Source of the DNA: Pocillopora damicornis
Lineage: Eukaryota
Length of the DNA: 64,000 nt
Assembly (NCBI RefSeq): GCF_003704095.1
Contig: NW_020845073.1
Location: 1,240,001 to 1,304,000, forward strand
Direction: 5' to 3'
A program made the position numbers and the translations under genes. The notes beneath the pieces were generated by a model. That model was not told where the DNA came from, made no database searches, and saw only the letters and a list, made by a program, of their open reading frames with translations. Positions 46,997 to 55,789 of this stretch are shown one piece after another. Position 1 is the first letter of the stretch. Each line of letters opens with the position of its first letter.

Positions 46997-49450
46997 ATGG
47001 CCTCGAAAGTCGAAGTTTCCGTAGAATATTGGTAAGTTCACGTGAATTTATTGTCGTTTAAGCCCTCTTCCATCTCATTTTTTCTACTTAGAAGTTAAAA
47101 GATAGGTTAGAGTAATTAGAAAATTGCTAGCCAAGCTTTTGTACTCCATTGGCCAGCATTGGTTCAATGACAAACGTAAATTAGCATTTCAAATATCAGC
47201 TTAATTTTTTTGAGCTTTAAACTTTTGTGTAGAAGCTGGAAAGTTCTTACTTAATTCAACCAAATAAACTCAGCATTCACCCCCGCTCTGGAATGGTTAT
47301 GGCCAAGAGATGATTTGCTCGCTTTCATGGCAGTGCCGCAGTGGACGTCAGGAAACCCAAATTGTTGACGAGGCAACGAATTGAAATTGCTTGAATGCGT
47401 TTCCTTGTTGTTTCAAATGAAACGTTGTAGAAATCTATAATTTCTGGTGGGGTAGATTTGTAGAACCAGTCGTTTGCAACGGCTTGCACCGAAACGAGCA
47501 TTCATCGAACCCAAACCTTCACGAGTTCATTACTCTTCATTTTTAACTCTTATCTACACAAAGCATATATTAACTTTAATGAAGAGTCATAGAATTTTTT
47601 ATTGGCCTGAAGATCAATTTAGTAGTTCAGAGCTTAATTCGTTCTCTCATTACCCAAAAATAACAAGCCAAATTTTGAATATTCTGGCTCGATACATTGG
47701 AAACAGATATGAACCACCCCGAAAGTGCAATATCATTTAATCTGCAATTCAATCAGTTTAAACGCTACGGGCATTTAGGAATAAAGTGACAAACATACGA
47801 AGAAATAGAGGACTATATATTGTATCTCTGGCGTAGGAAATTGTATGTCTTGGTGATGATTATTGTAAGTGATGGCAAAACAAGTCGTCACTTGTTTTTC
47901 TGTGTCCTGACACGATCTGTTTTTTACATTTTAATTTTATTCTACACTCCCCATCTCTTTTAAGGACGGAGGGTTTTTGTAAAGGGGGTCAAGATTTTCC
48001 TTTAAAAGAGACAAAAGCTGCTCTATAGTATTATTGTTTGATTAGAATCCATTTTTTTATTTTGATAAATTTTGCAACATGCTATGGGATTATATGATAG
48101 TGACTGTGTCAGTGAAAAACAACAGCAATGCATTTAGTTAGGTAGATATTCTAGTCTTGATAAATACTACATGGCTTTGAAATAATTCGAAAAGTTTGTT
48201 AGGATTTAAAGATGTCGATGAGTAGTCAGCACACCCTTAATTTCACTCATTCTGCATCATATGAACAAATTGTTTAATTTGTTTTCCTTATCATTCAGCG
48301 GTGCCTGAGGGTACGCCCCACGCTACAGGGAACTGGCTGATAAGATCAAGGCCGATGTCCCTGAAGCAAATGTTGTCGGCCAAGTTGGTCGCACATGTAA
48401 GTTTATATAGTATGAAAATGTGTAGTGAACAAGACCTTCTGTTGTCTGTTCCTTCTTTTTAGAGAAGGGACAATTTTTAAACTTTCAACAATGTGCAAGT
48501 TGTTTACTAATGGTTCCTTTGTTGTGAATGTGTTTTTTGCAGCTTCGTTTGAAGTAATGGTGAATGGAAAACTGATTTTTTCCAAACTTGAACAAGGAAG
48601 TTTTCCCTCTTTCAAAGAGGTTAGTTGAAATTGAATAAATCAAACTCAGTGAGAGTTTTGAGACTAACTCTCCTAGAAGATGCATGTTATCAGAGAGGCA
48701 AATTTGTACCTGCACAGGTTACATAAATTTCATTGACATCCATAGATGCTCATAGCCACCAAAGTTAAGACTTCTACCCCAGTTGTCCAAAGTGTGGACA
48801 ATGCTATCCACTTGATAAATCTCTACTGGTTGGATAGCTCAGTATGTTTTGTTAACTTTTACTTACTGGATAGCATTATCTAGACTTAAAAAAACTGGGC
48901 CCTGTTCCTATGTAAATTGTTGTGAAGGCAGTTATTACTATCTGTTCAACATAAATTCTTTCAATGCATAACAAAAATTATCATTAGTCTTACCTTATCA
49001 CACCTAACTATTAATGCACTGTTATATTTTTCCCTCTCCTTGGTTACTCTGTGATTGTCTTAGCACTAGAATTATTGTAACTACCCAGAGAAGTGTTATT
49101 AACTAAGTACTGCAGAGTGGCATTTAATTACTCATTGTGCAGAGTAAAGTGCTCTGTGTACCAGTGTGTTGTATTGTGTTTTCAAGTAAGTTTTGCAACT
49201 AATTGTGTTGTGATATCAGTTTTGAGCTCATAATTCTGTAGAGTAGTATCAACAAAATTGTAACCACCAAAGTTTGGTGTGGAGTGGTGTATTAAAATAG
49301 AATCAGACTTTGCATATTTGTTTAAAATATAAAGTTAAAATTGGAGTGTCTCTTTTTGTATAGATTGTTGTTGTGGTACGTGACTGCAGCCAAGGCAAAG
49401 AACCCTGTGAAGTGACAGAGAAAGAGGAATCATCATGCATCCTGCTATAG
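46997..49450 (+). CDS. Selenoprotein W2/MIEN1-like Rdx-family protein, 98 aa with Sec. Exons 46997-47031, 48299-48396, 48543-48619, 49364-49450
   Basis: Spliced product MASKVEVSVEYCGAUGYAPRYRELADKIKADVPEANVVGQVGRTSSFEVMVNGKLIFSKLEQGSFPSFKEIVVVVRDCSQGKEPCEVTEKEESSCILL. In-frame TGA at 48306-48308 in the CxxU motif, the Rdx motif FEV..NG.LIFSKL..G.FP, and a SECIS downstream. Confidence 0.93.
48777..48902. mobile_element. Short MITE-like repeat in a selenoprotein intron
   Basis: Inverted termini cccagttgtccaaa / aaaactgggccc with internal tatcca/tggata symmetry. Confidence 0.5.
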
Positions 49451-50032
49451 TCCAGCCACATGTTAACAATCCTACTAAATCAAATCACTTTAATCCAGTT
49501 GACAATTATGTGCACTTGCACACAAAATCGATAAAAAATTGAATCATTTTATTTATTAAAGTAGCTTTTTGTTTCTTCTAGGCATCTAAAAGCCAATCAC
49601 CAAAGTTTCTTTTTATGATTGATGTCCTCTTAAAAACTACTAGTTGTTATTTAGCATGTAGTAAAGTTAAACCTAGTAGATCTTCTTCCGTTGTCTCAGC
49701 GGTAGTTGATGTGCATAAAGTGTTTGGGCTTTAAGAATAGATGAGACGCCCTAGAGCCAAAATTTGTAAACTTCAGCCAATCCTTCCCTGATAAAAATTT
49801 TAGTGATGGTGGATTAGTTGCCTGTAAAAAGAAACTACAACATATTGTTAGCTATTGTGTGTATTAATTTTTGCATAATTGACTTAAATTTTAATGCAAA
49901 TATGGTGCTTATTTGTGGCCTTGATGCCTCATTTGGCAACACAATTTTTCACATGCTATGTGGCATACAGCTTAACTTTAGAACAAGTGGATGGAGCCTT
50001 GTGTATCTGTTGTTGATGCAAGGTAACGCTGT

Positions 50033-50101
50033 TAATGTTATTGTATGATGGTCACATCAAAAACACTTAGTAATGATGTTGACTTGATGGTTGGAACATT
50101 G
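50033..50101 (+). promoter_or_regulatory. SECIS element (eukaryotic) in the selenoprotein 3' UTR
   Basis: Helix I aatgtt/aacatt; core ATGAT (50045-49) with TGAT (50085-88); 10-bp helix II GGTCACATCA/TGATG(T)TGACT; apical AAAA (50060-63); AATAAA at 50160. Confidence 0.9.
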
Positions 50102-51944
50102 CAGTGGAACAGCAGAAACTTGATAGGTAGACATGCCCTGAGTGCTTGTAAAAAATATCAATAAAATATGGAAAAGTTAGAAGTCATACTCGTGCATTTC
50201 TCTGCAAAGTAAGGTTAAGTTTGTTGCTTCTCAAGTGGTTCTAGATTTTTCTACACCATTTGAAATGACTGATATCACCCAGAAGTAAGACTTACAGGTA
50301 AAGATTTCTCATAAATTTCCAAAGTAATTCAGGTATTCCTTCTTGAGTACACCTCATTTAGGCAACAATCTCCTAAATCTCTTTCACTAAATACTAAAAT
50401 TTTGCCCATGGAAGGAGTAATCCAAACCCTCTTGTAGGTAACCAGGACTACTTCCATTATTCTTTGTTGGTTCAGAGTCTGTATTGCTGAGTATTGATAA
50501 ACCTAAGTCATCACAAAGGCCAATCAGAGCACAGAGAAAATGTGCCAGACACAAGCTTAAATGAGAACTCAAAGTAAAGGCAAAAAATAAAATGACCTGC
50601 GAAAAATGTAGTAACTGCCTTCACACCATTACTTTTTTTGCTGAGAAACCCCAAGTTTCACCTAAAAAATGTCTAAGGGCACATTTTTTTAGCACATTCT
50701 TTGAGAAGTGCTCTTACAAAGATTCTCATCCACCAGTTTGTTTGCTGTTGTCATCAAGCCATTGGAAACCAAGGCTCCTTGCAATGCTATTATAATGTTT
50801 CTTCTAAGAAAATGCCTCCTAATTCATTGGCTATGACTCACCAACACAATAAGTTTAATTTTCCAAGGCCTGAACCACCTCCAATAATTGTTGTATGAGA
50901 TTTTCTCAAAGAGGGTGTTACAGATCAAATAATTGCTTGGCTGTGGAGGGGGTGCTCTAATGATTGTAAGCTATAAGAAGACCACCACAAGTTAAGTTTG
51001 TACCTCTTGTAAGCAAGCAGCTTCTATCATTCTATAGGCTTGAAATACAAAGGTAACAAAATCCAATTCACATGACTTTATTGTTGAATTCATAATCAAC
51101 ATGACATTATCTCACCATGAGCACCCCAACCTATCAATACTGAGCAAGCCTACATCAAAACAACACTTAGCTGCACCTAATGAGAGCATCCACAACACAT
51201 CAAACTTAACAACAATATTTATCAAATTGTCTTTTCAAAGACTTCTTTATGTTTAAGACAAAAATGTTTTCCCTCATAATTCTTGTGAAAAGAAAGACAC
51301 AACTAATGGTAGCTAGGTGGAGAAAGGGGGACTGTCTGAGTAAAACTGTCATTTGAATCTAGCATACAGCTACAGCAAGAAAAATCTCTAGAAACTGTTC
51401 AATAGTTGAATTATCATGCATAATAACTAATAATCATTCACACTGTAAAATACTAAACTGTTACCAGATTTATGGACAAATAAGCCCCTAGTTTCTTAAC
51501 ATATTTTGCCAAAAGAGGATTACTAAGCACAATAATTATCACTTTCTTACAATGGACTACTAAAAAAAATTCCATTTGATGGTCTGTAATGAGAAATGGA
51601 AAAAGTTAAATGTGTTACATTTATGAGCACCTTACAATCATTTTTGAGGCAACTACAAGCTTCCAAAACCAGTTTACACCAAGCCAAATAATTGGCAGGA
51701 CTCAAGTAAAAATTAATGGCTAAATAACTCTTTCCATCTTTTCTCAATCCATACAATGTCTATGTGGTTTGAGTACTGTCCCAAACAGACACAGATTTCC
51801 CCTTTCATATCTCTAAACTATGAAATTTGGGGAGCCCACATCAAATCTTGACATTTTAATTTTTAAATCAATTTAGTATTAACTAAGTACAATGTAAAAG
51901 TATTGCATGCAAACAGTAGCCTGTGGAAGGCCTGGGCACAACTG

Positions 51945-54900
51945 CTATTCAATAGTGTAAGCCATAAAGATGAAGTGTGGACTATCTGGACACAATTCGT
52001 GACCTGGCTTCACTGTCTCAAAACCCATGAACATGAAAGTGCGCATCAGACTCACTGCAAAAAGACCAACCAAAAGAAAAAATTATTTATTTACATTTAC
52101 ATACAGTACCCTGCTTGAGAAAGACTTTGAAAATGACTTGAGGATGCCCAAATAGTTAGTTACAAGCGAGAACTGAGTTGAATAAACATTTATATGCTGT
52201 ACAACTGAGCTGAACCCTTTCACTCTCAAGATCTCATCAGTGATTCTCCTTTCTATCTGCCACACAATTTTTATGATGTTAGTTTGGATAATTAATTATT
52301 GGATCAACTTAAGATATTCTACTTGATATTTTTCTTTATTCTTATCACTTGTCTGCTTGATATTGTATTGATATTGTAAGGAGAAATTCTGTCTTGGTCA
52401 CTCATAGAAGTTCAAGGGCTAAAAGAAAGCACAGGCAAATTAGGCCATAACAGTAACATCAACTCTTAGTACAGACAAACAAATAATAATTTTGCGTTTC
52501 TGTTATTATAATTAGAAAATGAGGGAATTTCAGGGTACAGTACGTTCTTTGTGCCCAAGAATTCAAATTACCTCTGTCTTCTCTTTCCTTGAGTAGACCA
52601 ACAAATATGTGAGTGCAGTCAAGATGTTCCTCTGCATACTCCAGCAGTGATACAAAACTAACCAAAACAAAGATTTCTAATAAGTGCCACGAGGTAATGT
52701 TATCTCAGTGCTAGTTTACAATAGGCTAGGCAATAGGCTTGGCAGATCCACCAATGAGTTGTAGTGGTATAGGCTAAGTTACTGCGCGTAAAAAGATTTT
52801 TAGGAGTGTCTTGAAGACCGATGGTTTTTTGACAGCTTAGCAACCCTCACAAAAGCATCTTAAACTCAATTTAGAATGCTTGAATACCTGTAGAGAGGTT
52901 TACAATAATGTTTTTATGATGTGACCAAATAAAGAAAATTTCCCTCAGGCTAATAACTTTAGTTCTTGTACTGACAAGTTCAAAATTTGGCTCTTCCAAT
53001 GCAGAGTTAAGAACCTTTTATTAACCATAACAGACAGAATTAGCCACAATAATGTGAGATTGTACCTTACAACTAAAGAGGAGAGACCTACCACAACTTA
53101 TCTAATTATCAGAGCAAATTCAAACTGCCACAGAAACAAGAAGTAATACATACAGTAGTCAGTATTACATACCACTCTTTGCCTCCAGGAGCAATCTCTC
53201 CATGTGGAACCTCTACATAAAGAAAGCTATTTTGCAACACAGCTCTCCACTTGACCACATCGTGTTCACCACTTTTAAGGCAAAAGCTATAGAGCAGGGA
53301 CTTTGATAGTTGGTCATTGTCACTCTCATTGGCTATTTTGGAATCCTGGTCAAAAACAAAAACATAATACAGTTGAACCTGTATTAAGTGGGACTGTACT
53401 AAGCGGTCACCCACTATTAAGGGTCACTTGTCAAAGTCCCAGATTTTTTTCTCCTTAATCACTGTACTTTTCACCTCTATGAAGCAGTCACCCCTATCAA
53501 ACAGTCATGGTCACTCGCCAGAGAGTCAGGAGATGACTGCAAGTTACTGGAGTTTCAAGAAACCCCAGCCATAATATGAACCTATACATACATGGACAAA
53601 ACTAACTAACTCCTTATCTACACAGGTCCAAAACAAGAAACAATCTCTTCACCTTTCCAAAGCATTTTACTTGTTCACTGATAGCAAACTTGAGCTCAAA
53701 TTCTTGTCATAATACAACTATTGGAGTTTTTCAGTTCCACGCATTGTAGTTTAAAATTCAGGTATATTTCCATAATCTTTACAAAGAGGACAATACAAAT
53801 CAAACTAATCTTAAGCCATTTATAATGAAAATAGGACTGAGTGGAGTCCAATTCCATCTGCAGTACTGTTATACAGTCAAGTATAATGGATCTGTAGTCA
53901 TATGAATGATTTAAGAAATTGAACCATGCTGGGACAAATATCACTTACATTAAAAAGTTTGAGGAAGGATATACCGTCCTCATCATCATCTCCTCCTCCA
54001 CCACCATCTCCTGAACTTCCTGCCTCGTCATAGCGGACATCAGGTATACCAGTCCATCCACTGTCGCAGCTTATAGTTACAATACACTGCTGACTCCCTG
54101 GTCAAATTAATCAAGCAATAGTATTACAAACAAGCAAATTTTGGTGAACAAGATTCAACACTTTTTCAAAACTATTATTTTTGAATTCCAGACTTAAGTT
54201 AAGGAGTCAAATCTGATGACTAACACCTAAAGGTAGTTTTCAGGGGTTCACCCTCAAGGTGAATATTCTTCAAATAAGTTAATAAAAGAAAATTTGAACT
54301 TGCACATAAAAATTCTGAACGGTAATTTATGTATTTAATAATGCAATGACAAAAAATGATACAGGCTTCTTCCAATGTTTGATTTGAGACTTGATAACAC
54401 TTAATAAAGGTCTTGAATATGTTTTCTTTTGATTTAGGATTCCACGCAAACCCTGAATAAAACAAAGGCTGGCTGAAAACAAAGGGCTGTCTGAAAAATA
54501 TAATATTCAACACTGATGATTTAATCTTGTGAAACAAAGGTTCCCGTCTAGTCAAAGGTGCGATGGTACTAATAGTAATGTTTCCAACACAATTTTCGTG
54601 TTTGCAGGGCGAGAATGTCTATGATTCCTCACTTTACACGACAAAGATCTCAAAAATCACACACCAACTGGTTTGAAAATAAAGGCAATTTGCTAGCGGC
54701 ACCAACAAATTCGCTTACATCAAATGCAGCTGCAATGAATACAAATTATTAGCGACAAAATTTTATTATGTAATGAGCTTTGATCACTTGTTATCACTGC
54801 AGCTACGATAAACACACGCATTCGAATACTGAAGTCACTTGACATTAAAATACTTTAAACATTCCTGGAAAAAAAATCGAGCACAAGTGGGCAAGTATCA

Positions 54901-54967
54901 GTTTTATCATAACAAAGTGAATATATGGCTGAGACATACGTAACAACAAAATCTTCCCCACTTACAG
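51945..54967 (-). CDS. OAZ: Ornithine decarboxylase antizyme, expressed by a probable +1 frameshift. Exons: leader ending 54966, 54097-53949, 53345-53173, 52657-52572, 52054-51945
   Basis: ORF2 reads DVRYDEAG..WRAVLQNSFLYVEVP..GGKECFVSLLEYAEEHLDCTHIFVGLLKEREDRVSLMRTFMFMGFETVKPGHELCP..FIFMAYTIE*. It has no usable in-frame AUG upstream of the conserved domain. ORF1 ends TGG TAT ACC TGA T (54051-54039), overlapping the ORF2 GAT GTC in the +1 frame. Confidence 0.92.
53367..53512. mobile_element. Tc1/mariner-type MITE remnant (TA-CAGT end) in an antizyme intron
   Basis: atacagttgaacctgtattaag..aagcggtcaccc..ttaag repeated subunits. Confidence 0.4.
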
Positions 54968-55789
54968 GGCTGTTTGGCGAATTTCCCCGGATGTTTTTGG
55001 TTAGGATGTTGGTTTTCTTTCTTCTTGTGCGGCGAAATTGTTGACAAGTCGCTGCCGAAGCAGACTACTGACGACAACAGCAATAATTAAACGTTTGAGG
55101 GAGAAACTGAATAGGCGATTGCTCCACTAAAGACTCCTGAGCCCCAACAGATCATGGAAGTCGAAAATGTAGACCAGAATGCTTTTGGACATTTGTCAGC
55201 CTTGTTCCCAGGCTTTTTCTGGTGCATTTAAGAATGGGTTTTGAGTGTCGTCTCATATTACAGAAAAGTTATTGCAAAATTAAAATTTTCAAGCCCATTG
55301 TTATGTAGGATTTCAAGCAGTGCAACATCTCACAGAACCAAAAAGGCATTAAGTTTAAAGTGGCTTGAGAGGCTTATACATATCCTCGCTGATCGTCGCT
55401 GTAAATTCAGCCTTCGGAGAAGCATAATAGTACTAGTAATTAGGCTAATAATAGAACTATTAACAATGGTCATAGTACTAGTCTTCTTCTGATTTATTAA
55501 CGAGGAGGAACAATGACCTACGATCAAAACGTAGTTGTACGTTTGGGTCTTAAGCTAATTTTCTTGCAAGACTGAAATCCACGATTGGAAAGGTATAATT
55601 ACTCAGAGGATCGTCATTGTCAACATCATCATCATCATCTCAATTAATTCGGTAAAAGCCGGTTAGGCAACATACCAACCACGTACAAAATGCAAAAGTA
55701 AAAGTTATACACTACAATAAGTACAATTCAGAATAAAAAATGAACTATACAAATTGAAACGCTCCTATTAGCCTAATGAACTGAAGTAA

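What the first reader, a model, noticed from the sequence alone, without database searches (positions are those of the whole stretch)
46997..50101. Hidden selenoprotein: CxxU redox motif plus CaaL prenylation signal, with SECIS
Seen: four short exons give a 98-aa protein with YC|GA-TGA-GY, the Cys codon split by an intron, and ending ..SSCILL*. A well-formed SECIS lies about 600 nt downstream. Established: Rdx-family SelW proteins carry CxxU; mammalian MIEN1/Rdx12 is a Cys homologue ending in a prenylated CVIL; CaaL directs geranylgeranylation. Inference: this is a Sec-containing, membrane-anchored SelW2/MIEN1 orthologue, likely truncated or mis-spliced by automated annotation.
Basis: partly seen in the sequence, partly recalled or inferred. 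Interest (0 to 1): 0.7.

Follow-up and report, generated by a model that had tools for sequence, protein, structure and literature searches.

The report
Coral SelW2/MIEN1 selenoprotein with prenylation tail
This is a real, spliced coral gene for a small thioredoxin-like protein that very likely carries selenocysteine at an in-frame stop codon and is predicted to be lipid-anchored at its tail; it is an ordinary member of a known selenoprotein family that public coral annotations cut short.

Summary
Four exons (35/98/77/87 nt) give 98 codons with a CGAU motif (TGA at codon 15, 48306-48308) and a CILL end. Each junction appears in 6 of 7 RNA or likely-RNA runs, and one contig carries poly(A) behind the SECIS. 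The SECIS (50035-50099) scores 33.9 bits, just under Rfam's 35, but is the only 3'UTR block conserved in orthologous coral loci, with three compensatory pairs. All 31 related loci keep TGA at this position. The protein is Rdx family, far closer to MIEN1 than to SelW. Its exon sizes match the Sec-containing MIEN1 genes of zebrafish and guppy, which also end in CaaX, in the supplement of PMC13134290. So Sec plus CaaX is already on record in this family, though I found no paper remarking on it. Database proteins of four coral species lack the CxxU motif; the Pocillopora damicornis entry starts right after the TGA. Sec insertion and prenylation are inferred, not measured. Verdict: new member of a known kind; modest interest.

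The parts
46997..47031 (+). Coding exon 1 (ATG to the first two bases of the Cys12 codon)
   Evidence: junction to exon 2 in 6 of 7 RNA or likely-RNA runs
48299..48396 (+). Exon 2 (98 nt): completes Cys12 and carries the GAU part of the CxxU motif
   Evidence: weak Pfam Rdx hit on this exon alone, E 0.042
48306..48308 (+). In-frame TGA, codon 15, inferred selenocysteine
   Evidence: TGA at the aligned position in 31 of 31 related loci
48543..48619 (+). Exon 3 (77 nt), Rdx core strands
   Evidence: Pfam Rdx E 1.1e-5; 2LJK E 8.4e-5
49364..49450 (+). Exon 4 coding part (87 nt): last helix, acidic linker, CILL, TAG
49436..49447 (+). CaaL motif (CILL), predicted GGTase-I site
   Evidence: Cys at -4 in 101 of 150 listed family representatives
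50027..50106 (+). Eukaryotic SECIS: helix I, AUGA/GA core starting at 50045, helix II, A-rich apical loop (Rfam match 50035-50099)
50160..50179 (+). AATAAA signal and poly(A) site (about 50179); some contigs run on to about 50500

Best explanation
This spliced, transcribed stony-coral gene encodes a SELENOW2/MIEN1-type Rdx protein whose in-frame UGA at codon 15 is very likely read as selenocysteine under the 3'UTR SECIS, giving a CxxU redox site, and whose CILL end is predicted to be geranylgeranylated. Shown here: exon structure, splicing, a poly(A) site behind the SECIS, conservation of TGA, SECIS and CaaX, family and intron positions. Inferred steps, from established selenoprotein and CaaX biology: (1) SBP2, eEFSec and tRNA-Sec bind the SECIS and recode UGA15. 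(2) Cys12 and Sec15 form a selenenylsulfide/selenol couple on a thioredoxin-like fold that reduces or isomerises target disulfides, probably recycled by glutathione. (3) GGTase-I prenylates Cys95, then RCE1 clips and ICMT methylates it, giving loose attachment to the cytosolic face of membranes; with no polybasic stretch the protein likely partitions between cytosol and membranes. (4) Without recoding, translation would stop after 14 residues, so selenium supply would gate the whole protein, anchor included. The UGA lies 88 and 165 nt upstream of two later junctions, so the mRNA would likely be open to nonsense-mediated decay when selenium is short.
For: Splicing and poly(A). TGA at the CxxU position in 31 of 31 related metagenome loci (32 genes). 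A SECIS-like stem after the CDS in 19 of 26 loci scanned, against 0 on the antisense strand and 0.3 expected from shuffles; 6 of the 7 misses have under 700 nt downstream; the same scan finds only 50045 on the window's + strand. The SECIS is the only 3'UTR block aligning to the orthologous loci L009/L010 and L018 (73-74% over about 120 nt), which share flanking genes with the window. 95.5% of cells are paired, with 3 two-sided changes in helix I. Cys at -4 in 101 of 150 listed representatives, 61 of them ending in Leu. A model of the 84%-identical relative P0026 (pLDDT 86) has MIEN1 2LJK as top fold match. Exon sizes 35/98/77/87 against zebrafish Sec-MIEN1 29/98/77/78 and guppy 29/98/77/81 (computed from listed positions). 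Human MIEN1 is geranylgeranylated by GGTase-I (PMC6738349, passages) and has a -225 mV CxxC (PMC3527542, passages). Both coding variants displayed in the RNA contigs (48333, 49447) are synonymous.
Against: No protein-level evidence for Sec insertion or prenylation in any coral. The SECIS is 1.1 bits under Rfam's gathering score. The covariation test has only 3 sequences, and 33 of 500 shuffles reach the observed value. No single listed contig joins TGA and SECIS. Intron 1 is retained in the main X1 contig and in related contig L001. The tail is acidic, which argues against tight plasma-membrane binding. The physiological substrate is unknown.
Confidence: 0.88

Rival explanations
1. It is a selenoprotein, but the CILL tail is not prenylated, or is prenylated without stable membrane attachment, and the protein acts as a soluble cytosolic redox protein like SELENOW1.
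For: Acidic linker with no polybasic second signal; human MIEN1 is reported as predominantly cytosolic (PMC6738349, PMC3527542, passages); some homologues lack any anchor (L013, L015).
Against: CaaX is conserved in 101 of 150 representatives against a Cys frequency of 1.7%; prenylation is reported for human MIEN1 (PMC6738349, passages); one group of homologues has a hydrophobic C-terminal stretch in place of CaaX (L016, L019).
Confidence: 0.08
2. The UGA is a true stop, or is read by ordinary leaky readthrough (Cys/Trp/Arg), and the product is a shorter protein from a downstream AUG or from intron-1-retaining RNA, as database annotations imply.
For: Database models of four coral species start after the UGA or use a different N-terminus; intron-1-retaining contigs exist; the SECIS is below the Rfam cut-off.
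Against: TGA in 31 of 31 loci at the position of the catalytic Cys of MIEN1; exon 1 is conserved as coding and spliced in frame; the SECIS is conserved while the rest of the 3'UTR is not; the database models disagree with one another.
Confidence: 0.03
3. The gene is a SELENOW1-type gene that acquired a CaaX tail independently in corals.
For: Exon 2 alone hits mouse SelW best (E 0.0055); the CGAU motif and the Cys-splitting first intron are shared with SELENOW1.
Against: Residues 16-98 match MIEN1 at E 2.9e-13 against 0.011 for SelW; the profile gives 2.8e-27 against 3.8e-4; mammalian SELENOW1 has exons 47/25/54/75/78 and no CaaX, whereas the window has the MIEN1 pattern.
Confidence: 0.01

Closest known systems
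Sec-containing MIEN1 of ray-finned fishes and lamprey SELENOW2 (PMC13134290, section 14 and supplement passages)
   Same: CxxU with G-Y after Sec; Rdx domain; C-terminal CaaL (zebrafish CIIL, guppy and lamprey CVIL); the fish MIEN1 genes have four coding exons with internal sizes 98 and 77 and the first intron in the Cys codon.
   Different: Cnidarian, so it predates the SELENOW2/MIEN1 duplication that the paper places at the root of jawed vertebrates and is co-orthologous to both; more acidic linker before CaaX; neighbours are a methyltransferase and antizyme gene, not the vertebrate neighbours.
Mammalian MIEN1 / Rdx12 / C17orf37 (PDB 2LJK)
   Same: Best sequence and fold match; same exon pattern (whale 89/98/77/81); CaaL prenylation signal.
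   Different: Mammalian MIEN1 has Cys in place of Sec (so needs no SECIS) and a longer N-terminal extension; its reported ITAM was not tested here.
Invertebrate SelW2 (Trichoplax, flatworms: PMC3828610 passages; two Nematostella SelW genes in the table of PMC3473315; amphioxus and sea urchin SELENOW2 in the PMC13134290 supplement)
   Same: Same subfamily; Sec at the same place in the entries I saw.
   Different: The amphioxus, sea urchin and centipede predictions I saw cover only the middle exons and show no CaaX exon; here the full-length model with its tail is supported by RNA.
SELENOW1 (SelW, PDB 2NPB)
   Same: Rdx fold, CGAU motif, intron in the Cys codon.
   Different: Five coding exons of other sizes, no CaaX, far lower similarity.

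Membership tests
Eukaryotic selenoprotein | In-frame UGA in the mature mRNA | tested here: met
   TGA at codon 15 in exon 2, spliced in frame on both sides; no variant listed at 48306-48308 among displayed rows (48 and 141 rows were hidden)
Eukaryotic selenoprotein | UGA aligned to Sec/Cys in homologues and conserved | tested here: met
   TGA in 31 of 31 loci; Cys in bird, ant and whale homologues
Eukaryotic selenoprotein | SECIS element in the 3'UTR, upstream of the poly(A) site | tested here: met
   Canonical AUGA/AA/GA core, conserved in orthologues, poly(A) at 50179; caveat: 33.9 bits against Rfam gathering 35
Eukaryotic selenoprotein | Sec incorporated in the protein | not testable with these tools
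   Needs 75Se labelling or mass spectrometry
Eukaryotic selenoprotein | Host encodes Sec machinery (tRNA-Sec, eEFSec, SBP2, SPS2) | not testable with these tools
   No whole genome held; the cnidarian Nematostella has 30 predicted selenoproteins including SPS (PMC3473315 table)
Rdx (SelW/T/H/V/Rdx12) family | Rdx domain above curated cut-off | tested here: met
   PF10262 47.5 bits (cut-off 22.6), TIGR02174 47.2 (cut-off 34.2) on P0006, identical to residues 16-98
Rdx (SelW/T/H/V/Rdx12) family | Thioredoxin-like fold with CxxU/C after the first strand | tested here: met
   Model of relative P0026: E6-11, H18-31, E36-41, E48-51, E54-58, H68-79; top matches 2LJK, 2NPB. A prediction on a relative, not on the window protein
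SELENOW2/MIEN1 subfamily | Closer to MIEN1 than to SELENOW1 | tested here: met
SELENOW2/MIEN1 subfamily | MIEN1-type exon structure (x/98/77/y) | tested here: met
   35/98/77/87 against 29/98/77/78, 29/98/77/81 and 89/98/77/81
SELENOW2/MIEN1 subfamily | Placement in a rooted gene tree | tested here: inconclusive
   48-row tree: window with Stylophora (100/87) in a coral group; vertebrate rows form their own clade (99/95); deep branches open; no SELENOW1 outgroup
SELENOW1 | Five-exon coding structure (25/54/75 internal) and no CaaX | tested here: not met
GGTase-I substrates (CaaL proteins) | C-terminal Cys-aliphatic-aliphatic-Leu | tested here: met
   CILL then TAG; junction 3 confirmed
GGTase-I substrates (CaaL proteins) | Isoprenoid attached and membrane association | not testable with these tools
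   Needs a prenylation assay; no polybasic second signal

The most novel reading that the evidence does not exclude
The ancestral animal SELENOW2/MIEN1 protein was a geranylgeranylated selenoprotein. Sec and CaaX occur together from corals to lampreys and fishes, so this family is an overlooked class of lipid-anchored selenoenzyme that brings a CxxU site to the cytosolic face of membranes, and the mammalian cancer-migration protein MIEN1 is its Cys-converted remnant. The sequences are in published supplements, but I found no paper stating this (main text and the held part of the supplement of PMC13134290 have no 'prenyl').
Probability: 0.6. Interest if true: 0.38.

Novelty: new member of a known kind. 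Interest (0 to 1): 0.22.

Why it matters
It corrects a gene that public coral annotations truncate or mis-splice (Pocillopora damicornis, P. meandrina, Stylophora pistillata, Oculina patagonica entries), so a redox selenoprotein is misread in coral stress and bleaching datasets. It shows that the Sec + CaaX design and the MIEN1 intron pattern reach back to cnidarians, which gives a simple comparison (Sec against Cys form, with and without anchor) for asking what MIEN1's redox site does. It is not a new family or mechanism.

Tried and rejected
Rfam scan of the whole window at gathering threshold: 0 hits. Rfam e-value scans of the 31 related loci found SECIS_1 in only 2 (L018 28.5 bits, L006 27.3 bits), so the Rfam model is insensitive for this family in large searches; I used a pattern scan with antisense and shuffle controls instead (26 of 31 loci scanned, leaving out L011, L014, L025, L029 and L030). 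No whole genome is held, so paralogues and Sec machinery could not be checked. The tree (48 rows chosen by hand from 172 proteins and 31 loci, bootstrap not fully settled) did not resolve deep branches and lacked SELENOW1. Contig depths differ along the 3'UTR but cannot show levels, so I draw nothing on an upstream poly(A) site (ATTAAA at 49555). An exon-2-skipping joint was not listed (4 joints, all shown); 50 joints were hidden. Searches of earlier scan findings returned nothing. The supplement of PMC3473315, with the Nematostella SelW sequences, could not be read and may already show a cnidarian SelW2 with its tail; the PMC13134290 supplement is cut at 4.0 million characters. No complex prediction was run.

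Full report
Observation. They give 297 nt, 98 codons plus TAG. The Cys12 codon is split TG|C by intron 1, codon 15 is TGA (48306-48308) within CGAU, and the protein ends CILL. Laying eight public runs on the region (seven RNA or likely RNA, one of unknown kind) showed each junction in 6 of 7 RNA-type runs. The eighth run covered the locus unspliced, as DNA would. X1's main contig retains intron 1. One X5 contig has a poly(A) loose end behind 50179, just after AATAAA at 50160, so at least some transcripts include the SECIS; other contigs continue to about 50500. No single listed contig spans both the TGA and the SECIS.

The SECIS. Rfam SECIS_1 matches 50035-50099 over the whole model, E 9.6e-5 in a 1-kb search, at 33.9 bits against a gathering score of 35; at gathering threshold the window gives no hit. 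The fold is -23 kcal/mol, z -2.34. Comparison gives stronger support. In orthologous loci L009/L010 and L018, which share flanking genes with the window (methyltransferase in all three, antizyme in L018), the SECIS region is the only part of the 730-nt 3'UTR that aligns (73-74% over about 120 nt). On three sequences 95.5% of cells pair and three pairs of helix I change on both sides, though 33 of 500 shuffles reach this, so the covariation alone is weak. A pattern scan finds a SECIS-like stem after the coding region in 19 of 26 related loci, against 0 on the opposite strand and 0.3 in shuffles. In the window it finds only 50045 on the + strand and one site on the - strand.

The UGA. A scan of metagenome contigs with a six-protein alignment returned 31 loci. 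All 31 have TGA at the CxxU position (32 genes). The patterns used for that scan lie outside the motif, so the codon was not selected for. Named homologues from quail and an ant have Cys there. This is the standard signature of a Sec codon.

Family. Database protein P0006 (XP_027042795.1, 'MIEN1-like, partial', Pocillopora damicornis) is identical to residues 16-98 and begins at the codon after the TGA, so the window most likely comes from a Pocillopora coral. Entries from P. meandrina, Stylophora pistillata and Oculina patagonica also lack the CxxU N-terminus, which confirms the mis-annotation claim. P0006 passes Pfam Rdx and TIGR02174 and matches human MIEN1 (2LJK) at E 2.9e-13 against mouse SelW at 0.011 (profile 2.8e-27 against 3.8e-4). 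A model of the 84%-identical relative P0026 has the Rdx fold with 2LJK as top match; the ESM Atlas returns MIEN1 clusters. The tree places the window with Stylophora among coral rows and leaves deep branches open.

The tail. Of 150 listed representatives (of 266 at E up to 0.001), 101 have Cys at position -4, 61 of these ending in Leu and 20 in Met; many of the 49 others look truncated or mis-predicted. The query included the tail, which biases this count upward. Human MIEN1 is geranylgeranylated by GGTase-I at CVIL yet reported as mainly cytosolic (PMC6738349, passages) and has a redox-active CxxC of -225 mV (PMC3527542, passages). The coral tail is acidic, with no polybasic stretch, so loose membrane association is the safer reading.

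Mechanism. Shown: gene structure, splicing, conservation of TGA, SECIS and CaaX. Inferred from established pathways: SECIS-directed recoding of UGA15; a Cys12/Sec15 redox couple on a thioredoxin-like fold; GGTase-I, RCE1 and ICMT processing of CILL; action on disulfides of proteins at the cytosolic membrane face. Failure to recode would leave a 14-residue peptide, and the UGA lies 88 and 165 nt upstream of later junctions, so NMD under selenium shortage is likely. The substrate is unknown.

What is known. PMC3316567 (passages) defined SelW2 as a selenoprotein of fishes and frog, with Rdx12 as its Cys homologue. PMC13134290 (section 14 read whole, other passages, supplement passages) places invertebrate genes in the SELENOW2 branch, dates MIEN1 to a duplication in jawed vertebrates and reports Sec-containing MIEN1 in ray-finned fishes. 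Its supplement lists zebrafish and guppy Sec-MIEN1 with exons of 29/98/77/78 and 29/98/77/81 nt ending in CIIL and CVIL, whale Cys-MIEN1 with 89/98/77/81, and lamprey Sec-SELENOW2 ending in CVIL; mammalian SELENOW1 has 47/25/54/75/78 and no CaaX. The coral gene (35/98/77/87) has the MIEN1 architecture. SelW2 is reported in Trichoplax and flatworms (PMC3828610, passages) and two SelW genes in Nematostella (PMC3473315, table in passages; supplement unreadable). Searches for prenylated, geranylgeranylated, farnesylated or lipidated selenoproteins found 0 papers, and searches combining MIEN1, SelW, selenocysteine and CAAX found only MIEN1 cancer and structure papers plus one unrelated paper (listings only, apart from the two papers read above). 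The library lacks most subscription papers, including Dikiy et al. 2007, which I saw only as a reference.

Verdict. The additions are a correct, RNA-supported coral model and the point that Sec plus CaaX goes back to cnidarians. Interest 0.22.

Noticed in passing
window 54056-54036 (- strand), antizyme gene about 51121-55060: A convergent ornithine decarboxylase antizyme gene (PF02100; spliced) has a candidate +1 frameshift site reading ACC-UGA in an otherwise typical context. ACC is not among the P-site codons in Table 1 of PMC1874602 (passages; Cnidaria listed as UCC). The ORF1 start was not resolved and the base was not checked in reads or relatives (no match). Two recoded genes lie side by side; L018 keeps the same order.
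   Followed up: partly
window 46763 and below (- strand): A spliced methyltransferase gene (weak Pfam Methyltransf_25; METTL13-like from recall, not tested) lies head to head, start codons about 235 nt apart, suggesting a shared promoter; the arrangement is kept in L009, L010 and L018.
   Followed up: partly
window 47032-48298 (intron 1); L001:1-880: Intron 1 is retained in otherwise spliced contigs (X1; L001; proteins P0022 and P0024 look derived from such contigs). It may be slowly spliced or regulated, or an assembly effect.
   Followed up: no
L016:36-400 and L019:28-390 (same group: L023, L024, L026, L027): These homologues have CxxU and a SECIS-like stem, but L016 and L019 end in a hydrophobic, tail-anchor-like stretch instead of CaaX: a possible independent membrane anchor in the family.
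   Followed up: no
L015:290-1260: Three SECIS-like hits behind one homologue, two of them near-identical copies about 410 nt apart.
   Followed up: no
proteins P0004, P0027, P0030: Database models from a coral and two fishes share nearly the same short peptide in place of the Sec exon; likely a gene-finder artefact around the TGA.
   Followed up: no
window 52250-52420 and 48780-48840: High-copy repeats inside introns; thousands of contigs pile on 52250-52420 in RNA-type runs and in the unspliced run alike.
   Followed up: no
L029:208-417, L030:387-596: GC-rich (65-66%) loci with CTIU and a tRNA gene just upstream in L030; probably bacterial SelW-like selenoproteins.
   Followed up: no
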